The notes under the pieces: generated by a model | Seen by the model: only the letters and a program-made list of their open reading frames with translations | The model's database searches: none | What the model was told of the DNA's origin: nothing | Part shown: piece by piece, positions 10,883 to 30,910 of the stretch | Numbering within the stretch: the stretch's first letter is position 1 | Layout of the letters: each line of letters begins with the position of its first letter | Program-made: the position numbers and the translations under genes | Assembly (NCBI GenBank): GCA_964647905.1 | Contig: CAZYJR010000008.1 | Location: 47,823-111,822 of the forward strand | Direction: 5' to 3' | From: an uncultured Desulfobacterales bacterium | Lineage (GTDB): Bacteria; Desulfobacterota; DSM-4660; Desulfatiglandales; HGW-15 | DNA: 64,000 bases

Positions 10883-10896
10883 TTGACTTAGGTCAA
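10883..10896. promoter_or_regulatory. CRP/FNR-type palindrome TTGACTTAGGTCAA (copy 1 of 5)
   Basis: Exact 14-mer, intergenic, upstream of the xdhC remnant and fmdE paralog. Confidence 0.6.
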
Positions 10897-10900
10897 AGAC

Positions 10901-11098
10901 ATGGAGCGACGGCTCCTTAAGATGGAACCAGAGGACAGGACGATTCCTGCACAGGGGCCCGGGCGGGGAAGCGCTGCACCCATCGGCCTGGATATCGGTG
11001 CCGACACGCCCGGCGAGACGGCAGTGGCCATAGCGGCTGAATTGATCCAGGCACGCCGCAGACCCCTTTCTCCCGAAACGGAGAGGATAGGAGGGTGA
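10901..11098 (+). pseudogene. C-terminal remnant of an XdhC/CoxI-family Mo-cofactor insertion protein
   Basis: Only 65 codons. APIGLDIGADTPGETAVAIAAELIQ matches the conserved XdhC C-terminal block. The N-terminal roughly 200 aa are missing. Confidence 0.5.
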
Positions 11099-11100
11099 TC

Positions 11101-11748
11101 ATGGAAAGAACCGCCCGGCGCCTAGCCGGCGCCCCCCTGGCGGGGACAATCGGGGAATACACGTTCGCCCGGTTCAAGAAAAAGGTGGAGGCCTTTCACG
11201 GCGCGCCCGCCCCGGGGATTCTCATCGGAGGCTACATGGTGGTGCTGGCGAGATCCATGCTTCCGCCGGGGACGCTGTTCGAGGCGCTGGTCGAAACATC
11301 CAAGTGCCTGCCCGACGCGGTGCAGCTGCTGACCCCGTGCAGCACCGGGAATCGCCGCATGAAGGTCGTAGACCTCGGACGCTACGCCCTGACTCTCTAC
11401 GATAAGGTCAATGGAAAAGGCAGGCGCGTATCCATCGATCTTCAACTGCTGGCCGACTGGCCGGAGATTCGTGATTGGTTCATGAAGCTCAGGCCTAAAA
11501 GGGAGCAGGACACCGATCGATTGCTCATGGAGATCGAACAGGCCGGCGAAGCATTCCTGGCCTGCGAGCCCGTTCAGATCAAAGAACCGTGGCTTCAAAA
11601 AGAGTCTATAGGAGAGATCGGAATCTGCCCTATGTGCCGGGAGGCCTACCCCAAGAACCACGGACCTTGCTGCCGCGGCTGCAACGGCGGCGCCCCCTTT
11701 CGTCCCCTGGAATCCGGAGGCAAAGGGACCTTGTCAATCGCCTCATGA
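11101..11748 (+). CDS. FmdE/FwdE-family protein with C-terminal zinc ribbon (paralog of 5317-6009)
   Basis: ATG 5 nt after GGAGGG. FHGAPAPGILIGGYMV motif; C-terminal CPMCRE...CCRGC. Confidence 0.7.
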   Translation: MERTARRLAGAPLAGTIGEYTFARFKKKVEAFHGAPAPGILIGGYMVVLARSMLPPGTLFEALVETSKCLPDAVQLLTPCSTGNRRMKVVDLGRYALTLYDKVNGKGRRVSIDLQLLADWPEIRDWFMKLRPKREQDTDRLLMEIEQAGEAFLACEPVQIKEPWLQKESIGEIGICPMCREAYPKNHGPCCRGCNGGAPFRPLESGGKGTLSIAS

Positions 11749-11939
11749 CTCCCTTCCTTGCTCCATGGCCGAGCACTCGAGGGTCTTACTGGGAGCTTTT
11801 CAGGCCGATCGGACATGTCAGGCCTTTTATCAACCATTTCAGCCTGTTTTAGCATAGCAACAATCGCTGACCCCCCGTTGACGCAAATAGACCCGCTCGA
11901 GTTTTTTTTCGAGCCTATGTCTCTCGAAACCTCATTTCC

Positions 11940-11953
11940 TTGACTTAAGTCAA
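11940..11953. promoter_or_regulatory. CRP/FNR-type palindrome TTGACTTAAGTCAA (copy 2 of 5)
   Basis: Perfect 14-bp palindrome 76 nt upstream of the CBS-gene ATG. A TGnGCTAT -10-like element lies about 30 nt downstream of its centre (class II geometry). Confidence 0.6.
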
Positions 11954-12028
11954 AGCCCGGCCTCCTTGCTTGTGCTATGCGTGAGCCATCATCCGGCGTA
12001 TCCGGCGGATGCAAACAGGAGCAAAGCT

Positions 12029-12646
12029 ATGCCGGAGGACAGAGAGACATACAGTCAAGGCATTCCCCGGTCGATCGACCTCTCCGAGGAGGATGTCTAC
12101 GACGCCATGAAGGAGCTCTCGGGATACCTGGACATCACTCCGGGAGACTTCAGAGACGTTTACAGGCACGCATACCGCCACGCCGTGGAGCGGATCACCC
12201 GTACGATAAAGGCCCGCCACGTCATGACCAGAGAGGTGGTATTCGTCCACCCTGAGGCTACGGCTGGGGAGGTCGCCCTCTTGATGGCCCGCCACGGCAT
12301 CTCGGGACTCCCGGTGCTCGACCAGGCCGGCCGCGTAAAGGGGGTGATCTCGGAGAAGGACTTCCTCAGCCATATGGCGGCGGGGGCGAACCTGACATTT
12401 ATGGAGGTGGTGGCGGAGTGCTTGGAGGCCAAGCGATGCGCGGCCAGTCCGGTTCGGACCAAGACCGCCGCAGAGATCATGACCTCGCCTGCGATAACGG
12501 TGGGCGAGGATACCCCGATCATGGACATAGCCGACCTGCTGGTGGAGAGCAATATCAACAGGGTGCCGGTAGTGGATCAGGACGGCGGACTGAAGGGCAT
12601 CGTCTCCAGGGAGGACTTGGTCAAGTCGATTACGTTCCAGGGATAA
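12029..12646 (+). CDS. CBS-pair domain protein
   Basis: ATG 7 nt after AGGAG. Two CBS repeats (VMTREVVFV...GISGLPVLD; IMTSPAITV...NINRVPVVD). Confidence 0.8.
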   Translation: MPEDRETYSQGIPRSIDLSEEDVYDAMKELSGYLDITPGDFRDVYRHAYRHAVERITRTIKARHVMTREVVFVHPEATAGEVALLMARHGISGLPVLDQAGRVKGVISEKDFLSHMAAGANLTFMEVVAECLEAKRCAASPVRTKTAAEIMTSPAITVGEDTPIMDIADLLVESNINRVPVVDQDGGLKGIVSREDLVKSITFQG

Positions 12647-12650
12647 CAAA

Positions 12651-13187
12651 ATGGAATTCACAAGGAAAATGAAGGGGAGCACCAAGAGCCCGCCTCCGGT
12701 AAGGGCCAAGGAGATTCTCTGGTCCTGGATCGGGTCCTTCTTGGGAATTGCGGCGGTGGGGTATATAAATGACCCCCTTCTTTCACAAACCGACCTGGTG
12801 ATGATCATCGGATCCTTCGGAGCGTCCGCGGTCCTCATATACGGGGCGGTCAAGAGCCCCCTGGCCCAGCCCAGGAATCTCCTGGGCGGCCATGTCATCT
12901 CCGCGTTCATCGGCGTCATGAGCTATCAGATCTTTCAAGGCAATATCTGGCTTGCCGGCGCGTTTGCCGTGGCCACGGCCATTGCGGCCATGCACGCGAC
13001 CAAGACGCTTCACCCTCCGGGCGGTGCCAGCGCCCTTATAGCCGTAATCGGGGGCAGGGAGATCCAAGACCTGGGCTACCTGTATGTTGTCGTCCCGGTA
13101 GGGTTGGGGGCCGCTGTGATGCTGGTGGTGGCCCTGGTGGTCAACAACCTGCCGAAAGACAGGAGGTATCCTGAATTCTGGTGGTAA
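12651..13187 (+). CDS. HPP-family membrane protein
   Basis: 178 aa and hydrophobic. Contains the eponymous LHPPGGASALIAV motif. Confidence 0.8.
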   Translation: MEFTRKMKGSTKSPPPVRAKEILWSWIGSFLGIAAVGYINDPLLSQTDLVMIIGSFGASAVLIYGAVKSPLAQPRNLLGGHVISAFIGVMSYQIFQGNIWLAGAFAVATAIAAMHATKTLHPPGGASALIAVIGGREIQDLGYLYVVVPVGLGAAVMLVVALVVNNLPKDRRYPEFWW

Positions 13188-13206
13188 TCATGGAATAGGA
13201 GGAGCC

Positions 13207-15741
13207 ATGGAACTCAGAAGACGAACCCTCTTGAAGCTGGGAGTCGTGTCCTGGGCCGCGGCATCGCTCGATATGAAGTTCTTCAGCTACCTGGGCGAAG
13301 CCGCTATACCGAAGAACGAGGACAGGGTAGTTCGTTCAACCTGCTCCCCCAACTGCACCGGGGCCTGCGGTTTCAACGCCCATGTGACCGACGGCAGAAT
13401 AACCACCCTTATCCAAAGCGCCGACTATCCTGAAGAAGGGTACAACCCCAGGGGATGCCTCCGCGGGCTCTCCATGATGAACCTGATATACGGAAAAGAC
13501 CGGATCAAATACCCGCTCATCCGCACGGGGCCGCGGGGAAGCGGCCTTTTCCGCAAGGCGACCTGGGACGAGGCCCTCGACTACGCAGCCGAAAAACTCA
13601 AGGGCGTAATGGAAAAATACGGGCCCGAGGCCGTCGGTCTGACGGTCCAGGTGCCGGGGACGGGCTATGTACACAAGGGGGCCTTTGTGAGGCTGGCCGG
13701 GCTGGCCGAATGGTCCATCCACCACGGCTATGATCAAAACGGGGATCTGCCCATGTTCTGGCCCATGACCTTCGGGGTACAGACCGAGGAGCTGGAATCC
13801 CTGGAATGGCCAAACGCCCGCTACACAATGGTTTGGGGCTCCAATATAATTCAGACCCGCCTCCCGGACGCCCACAATCTAATAAAGGCCAAGGAGAACG
13901 GCAAACTCGTGGTAATGGACCCCGACTTCTGCTCCACAGCGGCAAAGGCGGATGAATGGGTGCCGGTGAAGCCTGATACCGATGCGGCCCTGGCCATGGG
14001 GATGGCCAAGGTGATGATCGACAGGCGGCTCTTCGATGGTGACCTTCTCCGAGATTTCACGGACATGCCCATCCTGGTCAGGAAAGACACGGGAAAACGC
14101 CTCCTGGGCCGGGACGTAAAGGAGCTGGCCGGCGCGGCGGCCCGCCGGGACATACCCGACTACCGGGATCTATTCGTTGTCAGGAAGGGGGAAGGCCTTG
14201 CCCTTCTGGATCCCGAGGACCTGAAACCCTCGGGAGCGGAGCTGGAATGGGAGGGGGTCGTGGAGCTCGCCGGAGGGGGCAAGGTGGAGGCGACGACGAT
14301 CTTCAATCTGCTCAAGGAGCGACTGGAGGGCTTCTCTGTGGAGAGGGTCTCGGGGATAACCGAGGTCCCGGCCGAGCAGATACAAAGGATAGCCGTGGAG
14401 GCGGCGGAGAACACACCGCTCCACGTGATTTACGGGGCCAGCAATTATCAATGGTACAACGGTGACCTGAAAGGCCGGGCCATCTCTCTGCTTCCGGTCC
14501 TTACCGGGAGCATCGGGAAGAGCGGCGGCGGGTTGTCCACGTATGCCGGGCAGTACAGGATCCGGTTCGACCTCGGGGACTGGTGGTTTCCCCCGGAGGG
14601 CAGGCTCAACTGGGTCCCTTACCTCTACTTCCTCCAGGGCGGGGGGAAACGCTATCCCGAAAACGGCATAAAGGCCATGGTCGGCGGGTGGGGAAACCCC
14701 TTCGACCAGCACAACATGGCCAACCGCCTGAAGGAACGCGCCTCCTCCGGGGACATCCAATTCATACTGACGTTCGATTTCTCCATGACCACCTCGTGCA
14801 TGTGGTCCGATGTGGTCCTCCCGGCCACCACCTGGTACGAGAACTATGAGCTGACCGCCACCATCCTCCACCCGTATCTGCAGCTCCAGCAGCCCGCGAT
14901 AAGGCCCCTTTTCCAGAGCCGCACCGGGCTGTGGGTCGCAAGGGAGCTGGCCAAGAGGCTCGATCCGGGGTTTGAGAAGTACTTCTTCCCGGAGCTGGAC
15001 GAGGAGCGCGCCTCCCTTCGGGTGATCGATCTGCTGCTCGAGACAGGCGGTCCGGAGACGGCCGGGATAACATCGGATATGCTCAGGAAGGGGCCGATCC
15101 GCCTTCATTCCACGGCCCCGGAGGACAGGCAGATCCCGTTCTACGAGCAGGTGAATAAGAGGGTCCCGTTCCCGCCAAGGAGCTATCCCCCGCCCCTGGA
15201 GGCGACGGCGAGGTTCGTGAGGAGCGGCAGGATCGAGTTTTACAAGGACGAGGACCTGTTCCTCGAGACCGATGAGCAGCTTCCCACCCACAAGGATACA
15301 TTCGAGGAGACGGAGTACAGAGTAAACCCTGACGCCCGCTGGAGGTACAAGCTTCGCTTTGTGACCAAGAACTCCCTCTACAGGGTGCATTCCACTCATT
15401 CCAACAACGTGTGGATGAACGAACTTCAGGGCAACAGGCCCAAGGTGTTTCTGAACCCTGAAGACGCCCGCGAGAGGGCCATAGAGAACGGAAATCTCGT
15501 GGAGGTCTACAACGACAGGGGCAGGACCCGGGCATACGTGGTGATTGATCCGGGATGCCGCAAGGGAACGATCATATTCGACCAAGGCTGGTGGGCCAAG
15601 TACCTGAAGAATGAGTCCTACAACTCCCTGACCATGCCTTGGATCAAACCCCATCACGAAATCTACTTCGTACCCGGGATCTGGTCCCCCACCACGGTGT
15701 GGAACGAATGCCTGGTGGACGCAAGGAGGGTCGAAGAATGA
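13207..15741 (+). CDS. Tat-exported type II DMSO-reductase-family (NarG/EbdA/SerA-like) molybdopterin catalytic subunit
   Basis: SD AGGAGG. Tat signal RRRTLLKLGVVSWAAA. FS0 motif C-x3-C-x3-C (CSPNCTGAC). YDQNGDLPMFWPMTFGVQTEE...WGSNIIQTRLPDAH aligns to E. coli NarG [20 protein letters not shown]...WGSNVPQTRTPDAH, including the Asp Mo ligand. Confidence 0.85.
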   Translation: MELRRRTLLKLGVVSWAAASLDMKFFSYLGEAAIPKNEDRVVRSTCSPNCTGACGFNAHVTDGRITTLIQSADYPEEGYNPRGCLRGLSMMNLIYGKDRIKYPLIRTGPRGSGLFRKATWDEALDYAAEKLKGVMEKYGPEAVGLTVQVPGTGYVHKGAFVRLAGLAEWSIHHGYDQNGDLPMFWPMTFGVQTEELESLEWPNARYTMVWGSNIIQTRLPDAHNLIKAKENGKLVVMDPDFCSTAAKADEWVPVKPDTDAALAMGMAKVMIDRRLFDGDLLRDFTDMPILVRKDTGKRLLGRDVKELAGAAARRDIPDYRDLFVVRKGEGLALLDPEDLKPSGAELEWEGVVELAGGGKVEATTIFNLLKERLEGFSVERVSGITEVPAEQIQRIAVEAAENTPLHVIYGASNYQWYNGDLKGRAISLLPVLTGSIGKSGGGLSTYAGQYRIRFDLGDWWFPPEGRLNWVPYLYFLQGGGKRYPENGIKAMVGGWGNPFDQHNMANRLKERASSGDIQFILTFDFSMTTSCMWSDVVLPATTWYENYELTATILHPYLQLQQPAIRPLFQSRTGLWVARELAKRLDPGFEKYFFPELDEERASLRVIDLLLETGGPETAGITSDMLRKGPIRLHSTAPEDRQIPFYEQVNKRVPFPPRSYPPPLEATARFVRSGRIEFYKDEDLFLETDEQLPTHKDTFEETEYRVNPDARWRYKLRFVTKNSLYRVHSTHSNNVWMNELQGNRPKVFLNPEDARERAIENGNLVEVYNDRGRTRAYVVIDPGCRKGTIIFDQGWWAKYLKNESYNSLTMPWIKPHHEIYFVPGIWSPTTVWNECLVDARRVEE

Positions 15742-16412
15742 GAAGAGGCATGGTCATCGATCTCGAGAGCTGTATAGGGTGCCGTTCATGCGCGGTTGCG
15801 TGCAAGGAGCACAATGCCCAGCCGCCCGGGAACTGGTGGAACAGGGTCATGTCCCCCGGGAGCCACCGCCATCTCACGCCGCCGGAAAAAGGACGGATGT
15901 ACTTTCTCCCTGTCCACTGCCAGCACTGCGAGAACGCCCCCTGTGAAAAGGTCTGCCCGGTGGACGCCACCTACCGCTCGGACCAGGGGGAGATCCTGGT
16001 GGACTTCGAGCGGTGCATCGGGTGCCGCTACTGCATGGCCGCCTGCCCTTACGGCGTCCGGCAGTTCAATTGGGAAGAGCCGAAAAAGGCCGTCCGCAAG
16101 TACGAGTATCAAAACGGCTACGTCTACGGACACCCCCGGGAATACCGCCTGAAAGGGCGGCTCGTCTATATGCCTTTCCGATTCAAAGGGGTGGTCGAAA
16201 AGTGCAACTGCTGTGTTCATTACAAGGATCAAGGGCTGGAGCCCGCCTGCGTGCGGGGGTGCCCAGGAAATGCGCGGCACGTGGGCGACCTGGACGATCC
16301 GGAAAGCGAGGTGTCCAGAATGATCCGGGATAAGAACGGTTTCAACCTCTTGCCGGAGAAGGGGACGAGACCCAATGTGTTCTATCTCCCCCCGAGAAGG
16401 AAGGAGGTCTAG
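15738..16412 (+). CDS. 4Fe-4S ferredoxin-type beta subunit (short, DmsB/PsrB-like)
   Basis: In-frame ATG at 15738 overlaps the alpha stop (ATGA). Four Cys clusters (CIGCRSCAVAC, CQHCENAPCEKVCP, CIGCRYCMAACP, CNCCVH...CVRGCP). Confidence 0.85.
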   Translation: MRRGMVIDLESCIGCRSCAVACKEHNAQPPGNWWNRVMSPGSHRHLTPPEKGRMYFLPVHCQHCENAPCEKVCPVDATYRSDQGEILVDFERCIGCRYCMAACPYGVRQFNWEEPKKAVRKYEYQNGYVYGHPREYRLKGRLVYMPFRFKGVVEKCNCCVHYKDQGLEPACVRGCPGNARHVGDLDDPESEVSRMIRDKNGFNLLPEKGTRPNVFYLPPRRKEV

Positions 16413-16415
16413 GGC

Positions 16416-17645
16416 ATGAGAAGCATCAAGAATTGGGCGATTCTGGCAAGCGGCCTCCTAATAGTGGTAGGGGCCATGGCCTGGATTTATCAATACAGAG
16501 AAGGACTGATGGTAACCAACATGAGGAACTCTTACTCATGGGGACTTTATGTCTCGGGGCTCGCCTTCTTTGTGGGCAACGCCGCCGGAGGGCTGGTGCT
16601 CACCTCACTGATTTACGTCTTCGGCCTGACTCACCTCAAGCCCTTTGCAAAGATAGGCGCTCTTACCGCCTTTGCCAATGTCACCGCGGCCATGCTCTCC
16701 ATACTCCCGGACATAGGACAACCGATCCGCCTCTACAATTTGCTGCTGCACCCTCAGCTCGCATCCCCCTTGATCTGGGACATCGTCATCCTGAATCTCT
16801 ACGCGGTGCTCTCCCTGCTCTACCTCTACCTCCTGATCCTCCCGGATCTCAAGGGGCGGCTCGGGAGGCTGGCCTTGAAAGTGGATGACCCTGCGGCGTT
16901 CTCCGAGAAATGGGTCAAGCGCCTGGCCCCGTTTTCTCTGGTGGCCGCGGTGGGAATCCACGTGATAACGGCCTGGATCTTCGCCACCCAGGGGGCCAGG
17001 GACTGGTGGAACTCGGCCGCGCTCGCCCCGGATTTCCTTGCGGCTGCCCTGGCCTCCGGGACCGCGGTGGTCCTGCTTGTTTCCCTGTTTGCTTACGGCG
17101 TCAAAGAAAAACATGCCCGCGCATATCGCACTATGGGTATTTTTATATCCGTTTCTTTGTTTATACATTTCTTCCTGATGTATAATGATTTTTTCATACA
17201 TGCCTGGTATGGCGCGTCTGAGGCCTTGTCCACCCTGTCCGTCACCCTGAAGGATTACGGAGCGGCCCACGCCTTTGAAACGGCCGCCCCGCTCTTGGCC
17301 GTTCTTCTATTTCTCTCCGCGAAGACCAGGCAGCGTGCGTGGGCCCTGGCCTCCGGCTGCCTGCTGGTGCTCTCGGGCGTCTTTGTCCATCGCTTCCTGC
17401 TGATGCCCGCCGCCTTCGACAGAATACCGCTCTCCTTTGAGCCGCTGGGGCTCCAGCACACTGACTGGGCGATGCCCATAGCCTCGGGGCGGTATGGCGA
17501 GGGGCTGGATGTCTTTGTCACCAAGTGGCATTACTTCCCGAGCGCAATAGAGTGGGCGGTGTTCCTCGGGGTCCTTGCCTACGTGAGCATCCTCCTCCTC
17601 ATCGCCGTCGACCGACTTCCGATTCTGAGCAGGGAGGGATCATGA
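16416..17645 (+). CDS. NrfD/PsrC-type membrane anchor subunit
   Basis: 409 aa, polytopic, SD AGGAGG. Same architecture as 3445-4590. Confidence 0.8.
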   Translation: MRSIKNWAILASGLLIVVGAMAWIYQYREGLMVTNMRNSYSWGLYVSGLAFFVGNAAGGLVLTSLIYVFGLTHLKPFAKIGALTAFANVTAAMLSILPDIGQPIRLYNLLLHPQLASPLIWDIVILNLYAVLSLLYLYLLILPDLKGRLGRLALKVDDPAAFSEKWVKRLAPFSLVAAVGIHVITAWIFATQGARDWWNSAALAPDFLAAALASGTAVVLLVSLFAYGVKEKHARAYRTMGIFISVSLFIHFFLMYNDFFIHAWYGASEALSTLSVTLKDYGAAHAFETAAPLLAVLLFLSAKTRQRAWALASGCLLVLSGVFVHRFLLMPAAFDRIPLSFEPLGLQHTDWAMPIASGRYGEGLDVFVTKWHYFPSAIEWAVFLGVLAYVSILLLIAVDRLPILSREGS

Positions 17646-18268
17646 TGGATCGAGCCGCTCTCAAAGAAGACCTCAAGGCCTTGTCCGCGCTTTTCAGCTA
17701 CCCGACTCGACCGCACTCCCTGGGGGACCTCAAGAGGGCGGGCCTCATGGAGGTGGGGAATGGCCGGCCGCCGGTGGGAACCACCGGGCTCCGAACCCTT
17801 CAAAACGCCTATGTGCGCCTGTTCATAAACGCCCTCCCGGAAATCCCCTGCCCGCCGTACGGCTCTTTCCACCTGGAAGGAACGCTAATGGGGGTCTCCA
17901 CCCTGCGCATCCGGGATCTCTACGCGGCATACGGCTTTCAGACCCGGGAGATGCCGGATCACATAGCGGTGGAGCTGGAATTCCTCCACCTTCTGACCCA
18001 CCTACTGCCCGTTGGGGACCTCGAGGTGAGGCAGGATCACGCATTCCTCTTGGAGCACCTCAGGCTGTGGTCCCCCGCCTTTTTCGAAGGTGTGGAGGTA
18101 AGTGACGAAAGCGGCTTCTACGCGGGAGTCTGCAGATTCGCCGGTTCCGTGCTCCAGGCCGATTTCATGGATGAAGCAGAGCTTCTGAGCATGCACTATC
18201 CTCCTGAGACCGGGACCGGCAGCTTGATTATGCACCGGGCCCCTTTATCGGGAACGGGCTCGAGATAG
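17642..18268 (+). CDS. TorD/NarJ-family chaperone
   Basis: ATG at 17642 overlaps the upstream stop (ATGA). PDHIAVELEFLHLL motif. The last roughly 30 codons run into a foreign antisense remnant, so the C-terminal end is uncertain. Confidence 0.7.
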   Translation: MMDRAALKEDLKALSALFSYPTRPHSLGDLKRAGLMEVGNGRPPVGTTGLRTLQNAYVRLFINALPEIPCPPYGSFHLEGTLMGVSTLRIRDLYAAYGFQTREMPDHIAVELEFLHLLTHLLPVGDLEVRQDHAFLLEHLRLWSPAFFEGVEVSDESGFYAGVCRFAGSVLQADFMDEAELLSMHYPPETGTGSLIMHRAPLSGTGSR

Positions 18269-18423
18269 ATCTCCCCCAAGCTCCTCCGGGCGGCCAACCG
18301 GGCTATAGGGAGACCGAACCCTGTTCCGTAGGGTTTGGAGGAATGAAAGGGGATGAAGGACTCAACCAGGATGCAGTCCCCCGAGAAGTCCTCCTGGAGA
18401 AAGGAGCTCGTCGGATGAGACAA
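18196..18423 (-). pseudogene. Orphan C-terminal fragment of a histidine-kinase ATPase domain
   Basis: KPYGTGFGLPIARLAARRSLGEIYLEPVPDKGARCIIKLP matches the G2 box and C-terminus of HATPase_c. No HisKA or sensor part lies upstream. It overlaps the torD 3' end and the hdrC 5' leader. Confidence 0.5.
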
Positions 18424-19044
18424 AGATCAGCGAAGAACACGCTCTCAGACAAGGGAGAGGTCAAAGGCTGTGTTGATTTGACCGACAAGGACGATTCTCT
18501 CCTGGACGAGGTCAACCGGCTGAGCGGAGAGAACATAGGGCTATGCCTTCATTGCCGGTGCTGCGCCAACGGCTGTCCTTATACCGAGGTGATGGACTAT
18601 CCGCCGCATGTAGTTTTTCGCCTGGTTCAGTTGGGGCTCAGAGAAGAGGCCCTGGCATGCTCGACCATTTGGATATGTGTGAGCTGCAACACCTGCTCCA
18701 TTCAGTGCCCTGTTGCCCTCGATATTCCGGCCGTAATGGACGGTCTGCGCTATGTGGCCTTGAGCGATGACGCCAGGCTCGGAGAGCCGGAAATTGTCAA
18801 ATTCCACAGAGAAGTAGTTCAATCCATCCGGCGTCACGGCAGAACCCACAAGCTGGAAATCATGCTGAACTACAAAATCAGGACCCGGAAATGGTTCGAG
18901 GACATGGACTTGGGATTGAAGATGCTGGCCAAGCGAAAGCTGGATCTTCGACCTTCCCGGATCAAGGGGATCGAAGGGGGCTCCTGGAGCAGGATCTTCG
19001 AAGGAAAAGGAGGGAACCATGGGATATGGAGAAGAGACAGTTGA
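18415..19044 (+). CDS. hdrC: Heterodisulfide reductase subunit C-like protein
   Basis: ATG 8 nt after GGAGAAAGGAG. Two ferredoxin motifs, CLHCRCCANGCP and CVSCNTCSIQCP, spaced as in HdrC. Confidence 0.75.
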   Translation: MRQRSAKNTLSDKGEVKGCVDLTDKDDSLLDEVNRLSGENIGLCLHCRCCANGCPYTEVMDYPPHVVFRLVQLGLREEALACSTIWICVSCNTCSIQCPVALDIPAVMDGLRYVALSDDARLGEPEIVKFHREVVQSIRRHGRTHKLEIMLNYKIRTRKWFEDMDLGLKMLAKRKLDLRPSRIKGIEGGSWSRIFEGKGGNHGIWRRDS

Positions 19045-19891
19045 GATGTCCTATTTCCCGGGATGCTCAATGGTGACTTCTGCGAAGGAGAGCAATCTTT
19101 CTCTTCTGCAGGTTATGAAAAACCTGGATATGAATCTAACCGAGCTGGACGACTGGAACTGCTGCGGGTCTTCCTCGGCCCACAGCACGGACCCCTCTCT
19201 GGCCTTGAGTCTTGCGGCCAGGAACCTGACCCTGGCCTCCGGCCGAGTACCCCTGATGGTCATGTGCCCTTCGTGCCTAATACGGCTCAAGACGGCCCGA
19301 GCCTATCTCAGCAAAGACCCGGAAGCCCGGGAGCGCCAAGAGGAGTTATGGGGAGGGGCCATTGACCCGGACCTCAAAATCATGCATTTCTTTGAGGTGA
19401 TGGATGCGGTTCCGCCCGAACGCCTCGCCGCATCACGAGTCAAGAAGCTGGACCGCCTGAGAATCGCCGCGTACTACGGATGCATGCTGGCAAGACCCCC
19501 GATACTTCGAAAGGAGCCCCGCTATTCGGGAATAATGGAGAGGATTCTTTCCAGGGTCGGCGCCTACTGTGTGCCGTGGAGGTATCACTCTCTTTGCTGC
19601 GGGACCTTTCTGGCGGCGGCCAGACCGGATATCGCCACACCGTTGGTCAACAAAATAACTGAAGACGCGGTCAAATGGGGCGGGGAGTGCATTGTCACCG
19701 CCTGTGCCATGTGCCAAATCAATCTGGAGATCCGCTGTACCCTGAAAAGCAGGATCCCGGTGTTCCATTTCTCGGAGATCCTCGCCCTCGCCATGAGCGA
19801 AGACGGAGATTCCGCGGCGGGATGGCTGAAGCGCCACCTGACGGACCCTAGGCCCCTGCTGGCCGAAAAGGGATTGATTGAAACCCATTGA
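19019..19891 (+). CDS. hdrB: Heterodisulfide reductase subunit B-like (CCG-domain) protein
   Basis: SD AAGGAGGG. YFPGCS...NCCGS and YYGC...LCCG CCG-type motifs. Confidence 0.75.
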   Translation: MGYGEETVEMSYFPGCSMVTSAKESNLSLLQVMKNLDMNLTELDDWNCCGSSSAHSTDPSLALSLAARNLTLASGRVPLMVMCPSCLIRLKTARAYLSKDPEARERQEELWGGAIDPDLKIMHFFEVMDAVPPERLAASRVKKLDRLRIAAYYGCMLARPPILRKEPRYSGIMERILSRVGAYCVPWRYHSLCCGTFLAAARPDIATPLVNKITEDAVKWGGECIVTACAMCQINLEIRCTLKSRIPVFHFSEILALAMSEDGDSAAGWLKRHLTDPRPLLAEKGLIETH

Positions 19892-19982: not shown

Positions 19983-20525
19983 ATGTACACCAAGACAGTG
20001 ATGGATCACTTCAAGTCCCCCCGAAACGTAGGGGTCATTGAAGACCCCGACGGGGTCGGGGAGGTGGGCAATCCTCTCTGCGGGGATATGATGAGCATCT
20101 ACCTCAAGGTGAAGGAGGAGCGGATAGAGGACATTAAGTTCCAGACCTTTGGTTGCGGTGCGGCCATCGCGGTCTCCAGCATGTTGACCGAGATGGCCAA
20201 GGGTAAGACCCTGGAGGAAGCGAAAAAAATCTCCAATAAGGACGTTGCCGAGGCCCTGGAAGGGCTTCCCAAGAACAAGCTCCACTGCTCCAACCTGGGG
20301 GCGGACGCCCTGCACATGGCGATCAAAGATTATGAAGACCGCAAGGCGGGAAAGCCCAAACCCGAGGAGAAACGCAAGGAGGTACATGAGCACACCCATG
20401 GGGGCAAGTGCTACTGTCCTTATTGTAAGTCTGAGCTTTCTGAAGGGATCAGCTTTTGTGAATCATGCCAGCTCAATGTGCACCCTGAACATGAATCATC
20501 CCAAGACCTTGGAGGATCGTCATGA
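19983..20525 (+). CDS. nifU: NifU/IscU-type Fe-S scaffold with C-terminal zinc-ribbon tail
   Basis: MYTKTVMDHFKSPRNVG...NPLCGD...FGCGAAIA...LHCS scaffold Cys triad, with SD GAGGAGGGGG. Tail is CYCPYC...CESC. Confidence 0.85.
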   Translation: MYTKTVMDHFKSPRNVGVIEDPDGVGEVGNPLCGDMMSIYLKVKEERIEDIKFQTFGCGAAIAVSSMLTEMAKGKTLEEAKKISNKDVAEALEGLPKNKLHCSNLGADALHMAIKDYEDRKAGKPKPEEKRKEVHEHTHGGKCYCPYCKSELSEGISFCESCQLNVHPEHESSQDLGGSS

Positions 20526-25199: not shown

Positions 25200-25407
25200 C
25201 ACCCATAAATCTTTTCCTACAACAGCCGGTTGGCCAAGCAGGTCATGCTTAACTTGGATTTCGCTCTTTGAAGATGGCCATTTTTCTGTTTCATGTCGAA
25301 CTTGTGACTTCATTCAGTCGTGCTCCAGTCAGGGCAGGCTAGAGGCGGCTGCCCAACGGATTTAGACGTTGGCCACTTGGCTGAAATTGCTTGGGGATTG
25401 ATTGAAT

Positions 25408-25444
25408 AAGGCTGTTGAATCCCCCAAACGGATTCAACAGCCTT
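25408..25444. terminator. Bidirectional hairpin terminator between abiEii and hcp
   Basis: Perfect 15-bp stem AAGGCTGTTGAATCC / GGATTCAACAGCCTT with a 7-nt loop. It sits between convergent genes and has only a partial U-tract. Confidence 0.55.
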
Positions 25445-25470
25445 TCCTTGGTGATCATCACCCTGAAAGA

Positions 25471-27225
25471 TCAGGCGAGGATGGCCCGAAGGTCCTCATC
25501 CGGTGTGGAGATGGGCATGATGTTGTAGTTGTCCACCAGCACCTGGAGGACTTCAGGGGTGATGAAGGCCGGTAGGGACGGCCCGAGCCTCATATCCCTG
25601 ATGCCCAGGGACAGAAGGGTGAGCAGGATTGCCACGGCCTTCTGCTCGTACCAGGAGAGGACCAAGGACAGGGGGAGCTCGTTCACGCCGCAGTCGAAAG
25701 CCTCTGCCAGGGCCGTGGCGATCTGTATCGCCGAGTAGGCGTCGTTGCACTGACCCACGTCCAGGAGCCTGGGAAGCCCACCGATCTTGCCCAGCTTCTT
25801 GTCGAAGAACCTGAACTTCCCGCACGCCAAGGTCATCACCAGGCAGTCCTCGGGGATCTTTTCCACGAACTCATTGTAGTAGTTCCTGCTCGGTTTTGCC
25901 CCGTCGCAACCGGCCACCAGAAAGATATGCCTGATATCCCCTTTTTTGACGCCTTCGATCACCTTGTCAGCGACCCCCATGATCGTGTTCCGCGCAAAAC
26001 CGACCCAGACGGTCCCGCCGTCCACGTCATCCGGATAGCCGGGCAGGTCCAACGCCCTCTGGATCACCGGGGTGAAGTCCTTGTCCGCGATGTGGGGAAT
26101 ATCCGGCCAGCCCACCACACCCGTGGTGAAGATGTTGTCCTGATACGCCGGGCGCGGTCTTTGTATGCAGTTGGTGGTCATGAGGATGGCGCCCGGGAAT
26201 TGAGAAAACTCCCTCCCTTGATTCTGCCAGGCGGTGCCGAAGTGGCCGTAGAAGTGTGGATAGCGCTCTTTCAGCTTGGGATACCCATGACAGGGAAGCA
26301 TTTCGCCGTGGGTATAGACATAAATCCCCTTGCCGGCGCTTTGGGCGAGGATCTTATCCAGATCGAACAGGTCGTGCCCGGAGACCAGGACGGCCTTCCC
26401 CTTTTTTGCACCCAGGGGGACCTCTGTCGGCGTCGGGTGGCCGTAAGTCCCGGTGTTCCCCGCATCCAGCAATTCCATGGCCCGAAGATTGGTGCGGCCG
26501 CACTCGAGCACCAGCCCAAGCAGATCATTCGTTTTCAGGTCATTGTCCAGGGTGGCGGCCAGGCCCTTGTGAACCGCCTGATACACTTTGTCGTCCCTCT
26601 GGCCCAGTTCTCTGGCGTGGTAGGCATATCCGCATACCCCTTTGAGCCCGAAAAGAAGGGTGTGCCGGAGGGAGCGGATGTCGGGGGCCACGCCGGGATC
26701 GGACTTGAGACCGTAATCCTTGGCCTGTTCGATCATCCCCTCCCGAGTGGCCGCAGGTTGAAAGTCCGCCGCTGTTCCTGCAAGCATATCCTGCCGCAGC
26801 GAGGCAGGGATTTCCTTCTTTAGCCCCTCCCGGAGACGAACGGAGTCCTTGACCAAGGACTCGAGCCTCCCCGGGTCAAACTCCACGTTCGTCAGTGTGG
26901 CGAACATGGCCTTGCAGACGAACTGGTTCACGGCGTCGTCGTTTATCCCCGCTTTCTGAGCGGCCAAGGCGGAAAGGGACAAGCCTTTCAACGAATGCAC
27001 CAGCAGGTCCTGCAAGGCGGCCACATTGGGCTTCTTTCCGCACACACCTATTGTGGTGCACCCCCTGCCTCCCATTGTCTGCTCGCATTGATAGCAGAAC
27101 ATCTTTGTGTCCTGGGCGGCCCACAACTCCTTGGAGCCCAGCAAGGCGGGGCAAAAGGCTGAAGCCGCCACACCCATGGCACCTGTCTGAATGAATCTCC
27201 TTCTGGTTATCTCCTTTTTAAGCAT
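25471..27225 (-). CDS. hcp: Hybrid cluster protein (hydroxylamine/NO reductase) with N-terminal twin-arginine signal
   Basis: MFCYQCEQT...GVCGK N-terminal cluster motif and full-length Hcp body. The ATG at 27225 follows GGAGGG by 5 nt and adds MLKKEITRRRFIQTGAMGVAASAFCPALLG...LWA-AQ. Confidence 0.9.
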   Translation of the reverse strand: MLKKEITRRRFIQTGAMGVAASAFCPALLGSKELWAAQDTKMFCYQCEQTMGGRGCTTIGVCGKKPNVAALQDLLVHSLKGLSLSALAAQKAGINDDAVNQFVCKAMFATLTNVEFDPGRLESLVKDSVRLREGLKKEIPASLRQDMLAGTAADFQPAATREGMIEQAKDYGLKSDPGVAPDIRSLRHTLLFGLKGVCGYAYHARELGQRDDKVYQAVHKGLAATLDNDLKTNDLLGLVLECGRTNLRAMELLDAGNTGTYGHPTPTEVPLGAKKGKAVLVSGHDLFDLDKILAQSAGKGIYVYTHGEMLPCHGYPKLKERYPHFYGHFGTAWQNQGREFSQFPGAILMTTNCIQRPRPAYQDNIFTTGVVGWPDIPHIADKDFTPVIQRALDLPGYPDDVDGGTVWVGFARNTIMGVADKVIEGVKKGDIRHIFLVAGCDGAKPSRNYYNEFVEKIPEDCLVMTLACGKFRFFDKKLGKIGGLPRLLDVGQCNDAYSAIQIATALAEAFDCGVNELPLSLVLSWYEQKAVAILLTLLSLGIRDMRLGPSLPAFITPEVLQVLVDNYNIMPISTPDEDLRAILA

Positions 27226-27353
27226 TTCGTCCCTCCTTGGTGTTTAATTTACGGTTGCCGCCTCTCACAAAGGCGATGCCCAAAACGATGTTTCCAACAT
27301 GCACGGGCTTCCCCGGCCTTTGGTATAGGATAGAGAGACAAGAAATAAGCGCA

Positions 27354-27367
27354 TTGACTTAAGTCAA
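27354..27367. promoter_or_regulatory. CRP/FNR-type palindrome TTGACTTAAGTCAA (copy 3 of 5)
   Basis: Centre is about 135 nt upstream of the hcp ATG. Confidence 0.6.
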
Positions 27368-27568
27368 AGAGAGGCGACAAAAGAACGAACAGAGATGCTC
27401 GAGAAACGGTGAGGCCGTCTCGGGGGAGAAGAAGCGGAGGAACTTGGTCATGAACTTCCAGCAATTGATCTTGCTCCCGGTCATGGCCGACCCTCACGGG
27501 CTGTGTCTTGTCCTTGCAGGTAAGCAAGCCTGTGGAGGTTATGATGCCATGAAACGGGATCAAAGTCC

Positions 27569-27582
27569 TTGACTTAGGTCAA
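27569..27582. promoter_or_regulatory. CRP/FNR-type palindrome TTGACTTAGGTCAA (copy 4 of 5)
   Basis: Second copy in the hcp upstream region, about 350 nt from the ATG and just downstream of the metY stop. Confidence 0.5.
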
Positions 27583-27642
27583 CTATTCGCCCCGGGCACA
27601 AGACAACCCGCCTTCCGGTCCCTTAAACACGCCCGCCTGAGC

Positions 27643-28929: not shown

Positions 28930-29069
28930 TTTTGAGGCTCCTCCTTTAAGAATTTTCACTTCTCAGATTCTACCACCTTGTGGTATGATGTATCAAGTCT
29001 TAAACCGAACCAAAGGATATCCGCCCCGGCGCGGTGACCCGGGACGTGGAGAGCACCGGAGAGAACCTG

Positions 29070-30260
29070 ATGAGCGAGTACATCGAGCACGACAATGAGG
29101 GTGTGTCCGTGGGGTTGGTGAAGACCGAGTACTTCACCCTTGGTTATCCTCCGAACGAGATGACCCCGGAGCGCGGAGGAAGACTGGGACCGGTAACCCT
29201 GGCCTACGAGACTTACGGGGAGCTGAGCCGGGAGCGAGACAATGCGGTGCTGGTCCTCCACGCGCTCTCCGGAGACGCCCACGCGGCGGGCTACCACGCC
29301 CCGGGAGATCTCAAGCCCGGCTGGTGGGACATAATGATAGGACCGGGCAAGGCGATAGACACGGACAGGTATTTTGTCATCTGCAGCAACATACTGGGCA
29401 GCTGCATGGGCTCGACAGGGCCCTCCTCAATCAACCCAAGGACCGGCCGGCCCTACGGCCTGGCCTTTCCCATGATCACCATAGGAGACATGGTCAGGGC
29501 CCAAAAGGCCCTTGTGGACGACCTTGGGATAGAGAGGCTCCTCTGCGTGATCGGGGGGTCGATCGGAGGGATGCAGGTCCTGGAGTGGTGCGTCCGATAC
29601 CCGGACAAGGTGCTCTCCGCCGTTCCCCTGGCCACCACCACAAGGCACTCGGCGCTCGCCATCGCATTCAACGAAGTGGCCAGGCAGGCCGTTATGGCGG
29701 ATCCCAACTGGGCGGGCGGGGATTACTACGGCGGGAAAAAACCGGAGCCGGGCCTTTCAGTGGCCAGGATGATAGGGCACATCACCTACCTCTCGGAGGA
29801 GGCCATGAGACGGAAGTTCGGGAGGCGCGGGCTGAAGCCCGAGGTAGAACTGCATCCGGGCTTTGCCCCCGACTTTCAGGTGGAAAGCTACCTGAGGCAC
29901 CAGGGAGGCAAGTTCGTCAAGCGCTTCGATGCAAACTCCTTTCTATACATAACCAAGGCGGCGGATCACTTCGACCTGGAGCAGCGGTACGGTGCGGGCT
30001 CGGCTGTCAAGGCCTTTTCCAAGGCAAAGGCGCGCTTCCTGGTGGTCTCCTTCACCTCAGACTGGCTCTATCCCACTTATCAGTCCAGGGCCATGGTCAG
30101 GGCCATGAAAAAGAACCACCTGGATGTGAGCTTCTGCGAGCTTGAATCGGACTGGGGCCACGACGCGTTCCTGCTGCCCAATCCCAAGCTGACCGACCTG
30201 ATCCGGGGATTTCTGGACCGGGGGTCAAAACAAGCCGGATGGAGGCTTCGTGCGGTTTGA
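29070..30260 (+). CDS. metX: Homoserine O-acetyltransferase
   Basis: ATG 6 nt after GGAGAG. GGSIGGMQ nucleophile elbow; LSGDAHAAG and the C-terminal ...SDWGHDAFL block are typical of MetX. Confidence 0.85.
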   Translation: MSEYIEHDNEGVSVGLVKTEYFTLGYPPNEMTPERGGRLGPVTLAYETYGELSRERDNAVLVLHALSGDAHAAGYHAPGDLKPGWWDIMIGPGKAIDTDRYFVICSNILGSCMGSTGPSSINPRTGRPYGLAFPMITIGDMVRAQKALVDDLGIERLLCVIGGSIGGMQVLEWCVRYPDKVLSAVPLATTTRHSALAIAFNEVARQAVMADPNWAGGDYYGGKKPEPGLSVARMIGHITYLSEEAMRRKFGRRGLKPEVELHPGFAPDFQVESYLRHQGGKFVKRFDANSFLYITKAADHFDLEQRYGAGSAVKAFSKAKARFLVVSFTSDWLYPTYQSRAMVRAMKKNHLDVSFCELESDWGHDAFLLPNPKLTDLIRGFLDRGSKQAGWRLRAV

Positions 30261-30843
30261 CCTCAGGATCATTGCCTCTTGGATAGAGCCCGGATCCACG
30301 GTCCTGGACCTGGGCTGCGGAGAGGGCGACCTCCTGGTCCTGCTCAGGGACCGGAAGGGGGTTCAGGGATTCGGCATCGAGCTGGTGGAGTCCAAGGTGG
30401 CCCGTTGCATAGCAAGGGGGCTCTCCGTAATCCAGGGCGACATGAACCTGGAGGTCATGGATTACGCGGATCGGTCTTTCGACTATGTAGTCCTGAGCCG
30501 GACCCTGCAGCAGGCATACAAACCGGACGATCTGATCCGGTCAATGCTGAGGATCGGCAAGAGAGGAGTGGTCAGCTTCCCCAACTTCGGCCACTGGCGC
30601 GTCAGATGGCAGCTCCTGACAACGGGCCGTGCGCCGGTCACCCGCCAACTCCCCTATCAGTGGTATGACACACCTAACATCCGGGTCCTCACCTTGAAAG
30701 ACTTCCGAAGATTTTCGAAGCAGGTGGGCTTCGAGATCTTTCGGGAGGTCCCGGTAGTCACCGACGAAGAAAGCGCCAGCGGAAAGACGGTGACGACCCT
30801 CCCCAATCTCCGGGCCACCTATGGTATCTTCCTGATCGGGTAG
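30250..30843 (+). CDS. metW: Methionine biosynthesis protein MetW
   Basis: GTG after GGAGG. MRFDLRIIASWIEPGSTVLDLGCGEGDLL is the canonical MetW N-terminus. Overlaps metX. Confidence 0.85.
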   Translation: MRFDLRIIASWIEPGSTVLDLGCGEGDLLVLLRDRKGVQGFGIELVESKVARCIARGLSVIQGDMNLEVMDYADRSFDYVVLSRTLQQAYKPDDLIRSMLRIGKRGVVSFPNFGHWRVRWQLLTTGRAPVTRQLPYQWYDTPNIRVLTLKDFRRFSKQVGFEIFREVPVVTDEESASGKTVTTLPNLRATYGIFLIG

Positions 30844-30896
30844 CCCCTTCGCATTCCTATCAGCCGTTTTGCTCATATGGAAAAACAATCTTCTGT

Positions 30897-30910
30897 TTGA
30901 CTTAGGTCAA
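30897..30910. promoter_or_regulatory. CRP/FNR-type palindrome TTGACTTAGGTCAA (copy 5 of 5)
   Basis: Lies 119 nt upstream of the 31029 ATG (small protein plus RND efflux operon). Confidence 0.55.

What the first reader, a model, noticed from the sequence alone, without database searches (positions are those of the whole stretch)
10883..30910. Five copies of the 14-bp palindrome TTGACTTARGTCAA define a putative CRP/FNR (HcpR/Dnr-like) regulon
Exact copies lie at 10883, 11940, 27354, 27569 and 30897. All are intergenic, and I noticed no other copy in the window. The half-sites TTGAC...GTCAA fit CRP/FNR-family boxes (FNR TTGAT-N4-ATCAA, Dnr/NnrR-type TTGAY-N4-RTCAA). As I recall, comparative genomics of delta-proteobacteria assigned a similar box to HcpR, the regulator of hcp. 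Downstream genes are the xdhC remnant plus fmdE paralog, the CBS-HPP-NarG-type Mo enzyme operon, hcp (two sites), and a small protein plus RND efflux operon. The invariant central TTAR is more conserved than a dimeric HTH alone would need. Co-regulation with hcp suggests a nitrosative or N-oxide-responsive regulon that recruits an uncharacterised periplasmic Mo enzyme. No CRP/FNR-family gene is in the window.
Basis: partly seen in the sequence, partly recalled or inferred. Interest (0 to 1): 0.7.

Follow-up and report, generated by a model that had tools for sequence, protein, structure and literature searches.

The report
HcpR-type activator boxes, nitrosative-stress regulon
Five identical 14-bp palindromes are binding sites of an already described kind (the HcpR box of non-Desulfovibrio delta-proteobacteria), and they switch on the hybrid cluster protein, an uncharacterised exported molybdenum enzyme operon and an efflux pump, most likely in response to nitrite or nitric oxide.

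Summary
TTGACTTARGTCAA occurs exactly five times, at the stated coordinates, against 0 expected. All copies are intergenic, and relaxed patterns add no further copy.

These exact 14-mers were published in 2005 as candidate HcpR sites (D. psychrophila hcp1, Synechocystis norB).

- **hcp loci:** 65 of 80 related loci carry TTGAY-N4-RTCAA upstream of hcp.
- **Regulator:** about 20 loci have a divergent CRP/FNR gene with the recognition helix GTIPETLSRIL (Pro at CRP R180) and no FNR cysteine cluster.
- **Promoter position:** each window site has a -10-like hexamer 22-23 nt downstream, so it is centred near -41.5 (P about 6e-5). Relatives show the same TAnnnT signal, which indicates class II activation.
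- **Central bases:** the central YTAR is conserved across the family.
- **Conserved regulon members:** the box also precedes orthologues of the TAT-exported type II-like molybdoenzyme in 24 non-redundant metagenomic loci. CBS, HPP, DUF6448, RND and HdrCB-like genes are repeatedly linked to hcp or to the box.

The regulator itself is not in the window and could not be retrieved.

This is a new member of a known kind. Its main value is a testable functional lead for an uncharacterised molybdoenzyme.

The parts
10883..10896 (.). Box 1, TTGACTTAGGTCAA
10918..10923 (+). Predicted -10 hexamer TAAGAT, 22 nt after box 1. The predicted transcription start is near 10930.
   Evidence: inference
10922..11098 (+). 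58-codon XdhC C-terminal remnant. It is probably just leader RNA, because its ATG lies upstream of the predicted start.
11101..11748 (+). FmdE-family gene with a treble-clef zinc finger; likely an accessory factor of the Mo enzyme
11940..11953 (.). Box 2, TTGACTTAAGTCAA
11973..11981 (+). Predicted extended -10, TGcTATGCG, with the hexamer 23 nt after box 2
   Evidence: inference
12029..12646 (+). CBS-pair protein gene
12651..13187 (+). HPP-family membrane protein gene. A cyanobacterial member of this family has reported nitrite transport activity.
13207..15741 (+). Catalytic subunit of the molybdoenzyme. It has a TAT signal (MELRRRTLLK) and a C-x3-C-x3-C FS0 motif, and it is type II DMSO-reductase-like.
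15738..16412 (+). Four-cluster ferredoxin subunit
16416..17645 (+). NrfD-type membrane anchor, a putative quinol dehydrogenase
17645..18268 (+). NarJ/TorD-like chaperone
18415..19891 (+). HdrC-like and HdrB-like (CCG) gene pair. Relatives of this pair lie next to hcp, behind FNR-like boxes, in other genomes.
19983..21682 (+). NifU-like and NifS-like Fe-S assembly genes at the end of the same gene string. Whether they are co-transcribed is not shown.
25471..27225 (-). hcp (hybrid cluster protein, 786 bits against the equivalog model), with an N-terminal twin-arginine signal
27354..27367 (.). Box 3, TTGACTTAAGTCAA, proximal to hcp
27327..27332 (-). Predicted -10 hexamer TATCCT, 22 nt after box 3 in the hcp direction
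   Evidence: inference
27569..27582 (.). Box 4, distal to hcp; reads TTGACCTAAGTCAA in the hcp direction
27541..27549 (-). Predicted extended -10, TGgCATCAT, with the hexamer 23 nt after box 4
   Evidence: inference
30897..30910 (.). Box 5, TTGACTTAGGTCAA
30930..30938 (+). Predicted extended -10, TGgTATATT, with the hexamer 23 nt after box 5
   Evidence: inference
31029..31328 (+). DUF6448 gene. In relatives it is co-operonic with HPP and CBS.
31372..32727 (+). Membrane-fusion protein of the RND pump
32724..35822 (+). AcrB-type RND transporter. A 71%-identical orthologue follows hcp in Desulfotignum.

Best explanation
The five palindromes are operators for one dimeric CRP/FNR-family activator of the HcpR1 class. 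This class has the recognition helix GTIPETLSRI: Pro or Ser at CRP position 180, with Glu181 and Arg185 kept. It has no FNR cysteine cluster. The regulator gene lies outside the window.

Each box is centred about 41.5 bp upstream of a predicted transcription start, where a -35 element would otherwise sit. The bound dimer would therefore recruit RNA polymerase directly (class II activation) to promoters that have only a -10 element, which is extended (TGn) in three of the five.

The promoters drive:
1. fmdE, behind a dead xdhC fragment;
2. the CBS-HPP-molybdoenzyme operon (MoA, FeS subunit, NrfD, NarJ-like chaperone), possibly extending to the HdrCB-like and NifUS genes;
3. hcp, from two tandem promoters;
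4. the DUF6448-RND efflux operon.

**Shown here:** the sites, their fixed spacing to -10-like elements, their conservation in front of hcp and of orthologues of the Mo enzyme, and the type of regulator found next to hcp in relatives.

[quoted passage not shown] The signal is inferred from regulon content and from haem/NO sensing reported for other HcpR proteins.
For: - **Copy number:** five exact copies against 0 expected, and no other copy under relaxed patterns.
- **Published precedent:** identical 14-mers are listed as HcpR candidates upstream of D. psychrophila hcp1 and Synechocystis norB. The consensus wyTTGACnnnnGTCAArw is tied to the R180-to-Ser/Pro substitution.
- **hcp loci:** 65 of 80 related loci have TTGAY-N4-RTCAA within 400 bp upstream of hcp. 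There are 49 strict sites in 1.24 Mb against 1.2 expected.
- **Regulator in relatives:** about 20 loci encode a CRP/FNR gene next to hcp. Of 22 such genes, 20 have P-E-R at CRP positions 180, 181 and 185; the other two have S-E-R and T-E-R. Nineteen of the 22 have 0-1 Cys, one has two and one has three.
- **Promoter spacing in the window:** a -10-like hexamer lies at offset 22-23 after every window site. P for the minimum score is 6e-5, and none of 200,000 resamples reached the observed mean.
- **Promoter spacing in relatives:** the 65 hcp sites show information peaks at offsets 23, 24 and 28 (TAnnnT) and an A/T tract upstream. In 24 non-redundant Mo-enzyme loci, T23 and A24 each occur in 20 of 24.
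- **Mo enzyme:** orthologues of 68% identity or more are preceded by the box, whereas homologues of 58% or less are not.
- **Gene linkage:** CBS, HPP, DUF6448, hcp, MFP-RND and HdrCB-like genes recur next to the box or next to hcp.
- **Other HcpR classes:** haem/NO sensing is reported for P. gingivalis HcpR and D. desulfuricans HcpR1, and the latter's NO-induced operon includes an HPP gene.
Against: - No CRP/FNR gene is in the window, and none could be retrieved for this organism.
- There are no expression or binding data for this organism.
- The box class TTGAC-N4-GTCAA overlaps with Dnr/FNR-like specificities, so a paralogue other than the hcp-linked one could read some of the sites.
- The -10 at box 2 (TATGCG) is weak apart from its TG extension.
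- The distal hcp box is 350 bp from the start codon, and its role is unclear.
- No experimental test of the TTGAC-type delta-proteobacterial HcpR1 was found in the searched library.
Confidence: 0.82

Rival explanations
1. The boxes are read by a different CRP/FNR paralogue that responds to another signal. Candidates are an oxygen- or redox-sensing FNR-like protein and a Dnr/NnrR-like denitrification regulator. On this reading the regulon is a general anaerobic or respiratory switch, not a nitrosative-stress response.
For: The half-sites resemble the FNR and Dnr consensus. The regulator is unseen. The regulon contains a respiratory-type quinol-linked Mo enzyme. In Geobacter the HcpR regulon itself is described as including nar and nrf respiratory genes.
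Against: All ten half-sites are TTGAC, not TTGAT. The regulators that sit beside hcp with this box in relatives mostly have 0-1 Cys and lack the FNR cluster. No nir, nor or nos genes are in the window. hcp is the defining HcpR target.
Confidence: 0.12
2. The sites mediate repression or a mixed mode of control. One example is a roadblock or a loop between the two hcp boxes, which are 215 bp apart. On this reading they are not simple class II activator sites.
For: CRP/FNR proteins can repress. Rodionov predicted repression at the Desulfovibrio sat and aps promoters. The proximal hcp box lies inside the transcript predicted from the distal promoter.
Against: None of the five boxes overlaps a -10 element or a start codon. 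All lie at the -41.5 activator position, and this spacing is conserved across 65 hcp loci and 24 Mo-enzyme loci.
Confidence: 0.04
3. The 14-mer is a dispersed repeat (REP/MITE-like) or a chance or structural palindrome with no regulatory role.
For: All five copies are perfect, which is unusual for operators. Only 64 kb of the genome could be examined.
Against: There is no shared flanking sequence. 0 copies are expected by chance. All copies are intergenic and at a fixed distance from -10 elements. The same box sits at orthologous promoters in dozens of unrelated contigs whose flanks are otherwise unalignable. A 5-bp stem with a 4-nt loop is too weak to act as a terminator.
Confidence: 0.02

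Closest known systems
HcpR regulon, 'profile 2' (Desulfotalea psychrophila, Geobacter, Desulfuromonas, Synechocystis, Anabaena); Rodionov et al. 2004 (PMC545781) and 2005 (PMC1274295)
   Same: Same consensus (wyTTGACnnnnGTCAArw), with identical 14-mers at DP0742 hcp1 and Synechocystis norB. Same core target, hcp. Similar distances to the start codon (about -60 to -200). In Geobacter the regulon extends to a Mo nitrate reductase, and efflux and redox genes are also listed. In relatives the regulator has Pro or Ser at CRP R180.
   Different: The extra members here are a TAT-exported, roughly 845-aa type II-like Mo enzyme with an NrfD anchor (not the cytoplasmic NarGHJI), CBS-HPP, DUF6448-RND and fmdE. 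The centre of the box is constrained to YTAR, whereas the published consensus leaves it as n. hcpR is not adjacent to hcp. All sites are perfect consensus.
Desulfovibrio HcpR / D. desulfuricans HcpR1 (TGTGA-N6-TCACA box)
   Same: A CRP/FNR regulator of hcp and nitrosative-stress genes. An HPP-family gene is in the NO-induced hcpR1 operon (PMC5701242). Loci L133, L147 and L149 have this CRP-like box upstream of hcp, followed directly by a 56%-identical homologue of the Mo enzyme.
   Different: Different half-site and spacer, and Arg at position 180 of the helix. That is a different specificity class.
HcpR of Porphyromonas gingivalis and Bacteroides (the HcpR2 branch)
   Same: Haem-based NO sensing that activates hcp (PMC12750200 abstract). 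It serves as the mechanistic model for the signal.
   Different: Distinct branch and distinct boxes (GTAAC-N4-GTTAC; TGTCGC-N4-GCGACA). In those organisms the regulon is essentially hcp alone.
E. coli FNR and CRP class II promoters; Pseudomonas Dnr
   Same: A 5-N4-5 palindrome centred at -41.5 that replaces the -35 element, often with an extended -10 and an upstream A/T tract (own knowledge of the family).
   Different: FNR reads TTGAT and senses O2 through a 4-Cys [4Fe-4S] cluster. Such a cluster is absent from the hcp-linked regulators seen here.

Membership tests
HcpR (HcpR1 class, profile 2) binding site | Palindrome matching wyTTGACnnnnGTCAArw | tested here: met
   All five sites match. 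The 14-mers are identical to published candidate sites.
HcpR (HcpR1 class, profile 2) binding site | Located upstream of hcp, and conserved there in related genomes | tested here: met
   Two boxes lie upstream of hcp. 65 of 80 related hcp loci carry the box.
HcpR (HcpR1 class, profile 2) binding site | Cognate CRP/FNR regulator with Ser or Pro at CRP R180, Glu181 and Arg185, and no FNR Cys cluster, encoded in the same genome | not testable with these tools
   None is in the window, and the rest of the genome is not retrievable. The feature is met in relatives: 20 of 22 hcp-adjacent regulators are P-E-R, and 19 of 22 have 0-1 Cys.
HcpR (HcpR1 class, profile 2) binding site | Position compatible with promoter control (activator position) | tested here: met
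   A -10-like hexamer lies 22-23 nt after every site (P 6e-5), and the same spacing is conserved in relatives.
HcpR (HcpR1 class, profile 2) binding site | Target genes induced by NO or nitrite | not testable with these tools
   No expression data exist for this organism. The signal is inferred from the literature on other HcpR classes.
FNR (oxygen-sensing) box | TTGAT-N4-ATCAA half-sites | tested here: not met
   All ten half-sites are TTGAC/GTCAA.
FNR (oxygen-sensing) box | Regulator with an N-terminal cysteine cluster that binds [4Fe-4S] | tested here: inconclusive
   The cluster is absent from hcp-adjacent regulators in relatives. This organism's regulator is unseen.
Dnr/NnrR regulon | Box upstream of the nir, nor or nos denitrification genes | tested here: not met
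   No nir, nor or nos genes are among the ORFs scanned in the window.
REP/MITE-type dispersed repeat | Conserved sequence extending beyond the core, with copies independent of promoters | tested here: not met
   The flanks are unrelated, and all copies are at promoter positions.
Type II DMSO reductase family (Nar/Pcr/Ebd/Nxr), for the regulated Mo enzyme | C/H-x3-C-x3-C FS0 motif, NarJ-type chaperone, and a score above the subfamily cut-off | tested here: inconclusive
   A C-x3-C-x3-C motif and a TAT signal are present, as is a NarJ-like gene. The best solved relatives are PcrA and NarG. TIGR03479 scores 448 bits against a cut-off of 985.

The most novel reading that the evidence does not exclude
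The box may mark a conserved and so far undescribed periplasm-facing N-oxide module in sulfate-reducing or syntrophic Thermodesulfobacteriota and their neighbours. The module would comprise a distinct clade of TAT-exported type II-like molybdoenzyme with an NrfD quinol-dehydrogenase anchor, a CBS/HPP nitrite channel, DUF6448, an RND pump and, in a subgroup that includes this organism, a TAT-exported hybrid cluster protein. On this reading the Mo enzyme has a specific N-oxide substrate (nitrate, nitrite or a related species), and Hcp works outside the cytoplasm.
Probability: 0.3. Interest if true: 0.6.

Novelty: new member of a known kind. Interest (0 to 1): 0.4.

Why it matters
The motif and its regulator class have been in the literature since 2004-2005, so the finding does not open a new category. 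Its value lies in what the box points to.

It ties an uncharacterised, widespread clade of exported molybdoenzyme to hcp, the marker gene of nitrosative stress. It does the same for the genes that travel with that enzyme: CBS-HPP, DUF6448, an RND pump and HdrCB-like genes. The link holds across many uncultured lineages and under two different HcpR specificity classes.

This gives a concrete, testable hypothesis for the enzyme's physiological role. Cultured organisms that carry orthologues, Desulfotignum phosphitoxidans and Desulfofustis glycolicus, are available to test it in.

Tried and rejected
- **Dispersed repeat:** rejected. There is no flank similarity among the five copies or to related loci.
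- **Remnant of a deleted hcpR or other gene between the two hcp boxes:** blastx against all ORFs of the related loci found nothing.
- **Known RNA family anywhere in the window:** none at the gathering score.
- **Structured RNA between the two hcp boxes:** not significant, z -1.14. The single terminator-like hit there is at chance level.
- **Finding the organism's regulator by walking off the window:** two look-ups failed because the ORF starts were not the called starts. Two others returned Logan contigs that end inside the window. The 117-kb NCBI contig that carries the identical Mo enzyme is on record, but neither it nor its name could be retrieved.
- **HcpR2 box (GTAAC-N4-GTTAC) near distant homologues of the Mo enzyme:** none found.
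- **Ddes_1824 as a precedent for an HcpR-linked Mo enzyme:** it is moeA, not an oxidoreductase.
- **Literature on TAT-exported Hcp:** nothing relevant in the searchable library.
Full report
**1. Observation**

The pattern TTGACTTARGTCAA occurs at 10883, 11940, 27354, 27569 and 30897. No dinucleotide-preserving shuffle produced a single copy. Relaxing the pattern to TTGAYNNNNRTCAA returns the same five sites, against 0.12 expected. Allowing one mismatch in TTGAC-N4-GTCAA adds only 4177 (inside an NrfD gene) and 6114. That is about the number chance gives, and neither has the TTAR centre.

Independent gene calls on 100%-identical Logan contigs place all five sites between genes. The sequences on either side of the five copies are unrelated to each other. 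blastn of the intergenic regions against all fetched loci finds nothing beyond about 21 nt around the box.

**2. Gene content**

| Coordinates | Gene |
|---|---|
| 10124-10825 | DUF554 |
| 10922-11098 | 58-codon XdhC_C remnant (E 2e-6) |
| 11101-11748 | FmdE |
| 12029-12646 | CBS pair |
| 12651-13187 | HPP |
| 13207-15741 | Mo-bisPGD catalytic subunit |
| downstream to 21682 | 4Fe-4S subunit, NrfD, NarJ-like chaperone, HdrC/HdrB-like pair, NifU, NifS |
| 25471-27225 (minus) | hcp |
| 31029-31328 | DUF6448 |
| 31372-35822 | membrane-fusion protein and AcrB-type pump |

The Mo enzyme starts MELRRRTLLK, a twin-arginine signal, and has a C-x3-C-x3-C cluster motif. Its best solved relatives are perchlorate reductase PcrA and NarG. 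Its best NCBIfam model is the type II DMSO-reductase subfamily, but the score is well below the cut-off (448 against 985 bits). 'NarG-type' is therefore approximate: it is a divergent, exported, type II-like enzyme with an NrfD anchor.

A jackhmmer search seeded with E. coli CRP found no CRP/FNR ORF in the window.

**3. What the box is: literature**

Rodionov et al. defined HcpR in 2004. They showed that the non-Desulfovibrio delta-proteobacteria use an FNR-like palindrome, given as ATTTGACCNNGGTCAAAT in 2004 and wyTTGACnnnnGTCAArw in 2005. They correlated this with replacement of CRP Arg180 by Ser or Pro.

Their Table S1 lists tcTTGACtTAGGTCAAAg upstream of D. psychrophila hcp1 and tTTTGACtTAaGTCAAgg upstream of Synechocystis norB. 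These are exactly the two variants in this window. The same papers report that the regulon in Geobacter and Desulfuromonas extends to nar, nrfHA, ndh and other redox genes.

**4. What the box is: comparative evidence gathered here**

A scan of species-representative genomes with the window's Hcp returned 80 loci. They come mostly from Thermodesulfobacteriota and Nitrospirota MAGs, and the best is 68-69% identical.

- **Frequency:** strict TTGAC-N4-GTCAA occurs 49 times in 1.24 Mb, against 1.2 expected.
- **Position:** 65 of 80 loci have TTGAY-N4-RTCAA within 400 bp upstream of hcp, mostly 75-120 bp.
- **Centre:** the four central bases are not free. They read Y-T/C-A-R, with A at the third position in 62 of 65 sites, and TTAA is the commonest centre.
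- **Regulator:** 22 loci carry a CRP/FNR gene near hcp, usually divergent from it. Aligned to CRP, 20 have Pro, one Ser and one Thr at position 180, and all keep Glu181 and Arg185. The typical helix is GTIPETLSRIL. Nineteen of the 22 have 0-1 cysteine, so they are not FNR-type Fe-S sensors.
- **Autoregulation:** several of these regulator genes have a box of their own upstream, which suggests autoregulation.

**5. Promoter anatomy**

Each of the five window sites, oriented toward its downstream gene, is followed by a -10-like hexamer at offset 22 or 23.

| Box | -10 element |
|---|---|
| 1 | TAAGAT |
| 2 | TGcTATGCG |
| 3 | TATCCT |
| 4 | TGgCATCAT |
| 5 | TGgTATATT |

Against random positions of the window, the minimum score of five has P = 6e-5. 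The mean of five was not reached in 200,000 resamples.

This places each box centre at about -41.5, the class II activator position, where the box stands in for a -35 element. The 65 hcp sites from other genomes show the same thing without any alignment of flanks. Information peaks occur at offsets 23 (T), 24 (A) and 28 (T), and an A/T tract lies 7-15 nt upstream of the box, where an alpha-CTD contact would be expected.

I infer activation, not repression. No box overlaps a -10 element or a start codon.

**6. Are the other targets real members?**

A metagenome scan with the Mo enzyme returned 80 loci. Loci with orthologues of 68% identity or more almost all carry the box 65-250 bp upstream of the catalytic gene (one lies 430 bp upstream). 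Homologues of 58% or less do not.

In 24 non-redundant orthologous loci the flanks are unalignable, but T23 and A24 after the box are each present in 20 of 24. In many of these loci CBS-HPP, sometimes followed by DUF6448 and hcp, is transcribed divergently from the Mo operon, with the single box in the shared spacer.

Other links appear among the hcp loci:
- Desulfotignum has hcp followed by orthologues of this window's pump (71% identical).
- Three loci have the HdrCB-like pair next to hcp. In two of them (L006, L021) FNR-like boxes lie just upstream of the pair.
- One locus has CBS divergent from hcp, with two boxes between them.

In a more distant group (56% identity; L133, L147, L149), hcp sits directly upstream of the Mo enzyme, behind a Desulfovibrio-type TGTGA-N6-TCACA box. 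The hcp-molybdoenzyme link therefore holds under two HcpR specificity classes.

Two further points from the literature bear on HPP. An HPP gene lies in the NO-induced hcpR1 operon of D. desulfuricans. An HPP protein has reported nitrite transport activity (Maeda 2014, cited in PMC10605003).

**7. Mechanism and confidence**

Best explanation (0.82): an HcpR1-class activator encoded elsewhere binds the five boxes and activates class II promoters. These drive fmdE, the CBS-HPP-molybdoenzyme operon, hcp (two tandem promoters, with predicted starts near 27320 and 27534) and DUF6448-RND.

The signal is most likely NO or nitrite. This rests on regulon content and on haem/NO sensing reported for other HcpR proteins. 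It is inferred, not shown.

Rivals:
- a different CRP/FNR paralogue or signal (0.12);
- a repressive or looping mode (0.04);
- a non-regulatory repeat (0.02).

**8. What could not be done**

The regulator of this organism was not found. The identical Mo enzyme is on record on a 117,372-bp NCBI contig. That contig, and any organism name, could not be retrieved. The Logan contigs end inside the window. The nearest named relative for both Hcp and the Mo enzyme is the MAG 'Deltaproteobacteria bacterium HGW-Deltaproteobacteria-15'.

**9. Verdict**

The box, its regulator class and its link to hcp are established computational knowledge, so this is a new member of a known kind.

The useful new content is threefold: the conserved recruitment of a distinct clade of exported molybdoenzyme and its companion genes, the family-wide constraint on the centre of the box, and the uniform class II architecture. 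Interest is 0.4.

Noticed in passing
window 27100-27225 (minus strand); also L002, L006, L009-L011, L013 and other Desulfobacterales loci: The window's Hcp begins MLKKEITRRRFIQTGAMGVAASAFCPALLGSKELWAA. This is a twin-arginine export signal, about 41 residues ahead of the usual MFCYQCE N-terminus, and a strong AAGGAGG Shine-Dalgarno sequence precedes the start codon. 26 of 79 related Hcp were flagged as carrying a similar SRRxFLK extension, many with an AxA-like cleavage site; one of these (L061) is a doubtful match. A periplasmic Hcp is implied. Two literature searches found no description of one.
   Followed up: partly
window 27359-27484 (minus strand): A 41-codon ORF (MTGSKINCWKFMTKFLRFFSPETASPFLEHLCSFFCRLSLT) with a GAGGG Shine-Dalgarno sequence lies between the two hcp boxes, downstream of the predicted distal promoter. 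It has no homologue in the fetched loci. The region is not significantly structured (z -1.14), and the terminator-like hit at 27401-27386 is at chance level.
   Followed up: partly
window 126-6496: A second Mo-enzyme operon has no HcpR box. It comprises an ArrA-like catalytic subunit (1271 bits against the arsenate respiratory reductase model, cut-off 1600), an FeS subunit, NrfD, a NarJ-like chaperone and a second FmdE paralogue. A 98-aa ArsR-type (HTH_5) regulator and an ABC transporter follow. The one-mismatch box at 6114 sits just upstream of the ArsR gene and is probably chance.
   Followed up: partly
L133, L147, L149 (metagenome loci): In homologues of the Mo enzyme at 56% identity, hcp lies directly upstream of the catalytic gene, and a Desulfovibrio-type CRP-like box (TGTGA-N6-TCACA) lies about 100 bp upstream of hcp. 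The hcp-molybdoenzyme link is therefore kept under a different HcpR specificity class.
   Followed up: partly
L091-L096, L099, L102, L104, L105: CBS-HPP, sometimes with DUF6448 and hcp, is transcribed divergently from the Mo operon, with a single box in the shared spacer. In some loci a -10-like hexamer also lies about 22-28 nt from the box on the opposite strand. This suggests bidirectional activation from one site.
   Followed up: partly
window 30945-31035: The predicted 84-nt leader of DUF6448 folds into two GC-rich hairpins (-35.2 kcal/mol, z -2.66, 0 of 200 shuffles as stable). Their function is unknown.
   Followed up: partly
window 23951-25199: An AbiEi/AbiEii type IV toxin-antitoxin pair is inserted between the MFS transporter gene and hcp.
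   Followed up: no
window 53695-56409 (minus strand) and 56922-58145: A third molybdopterin oxidoreductase lies next to a methyltransferase. The Logan gene call is 690 aa and has no Fe4S4 domain hit. A Tll0287-like/HAMP sensor protein is nearby.
   Followed up: no
hcp loci L003, L029, L044, L056: A second box lies immediately upstream of the hcpR-like gene itself, consistent with autoregulation of the regulator.
   Followed up: partly
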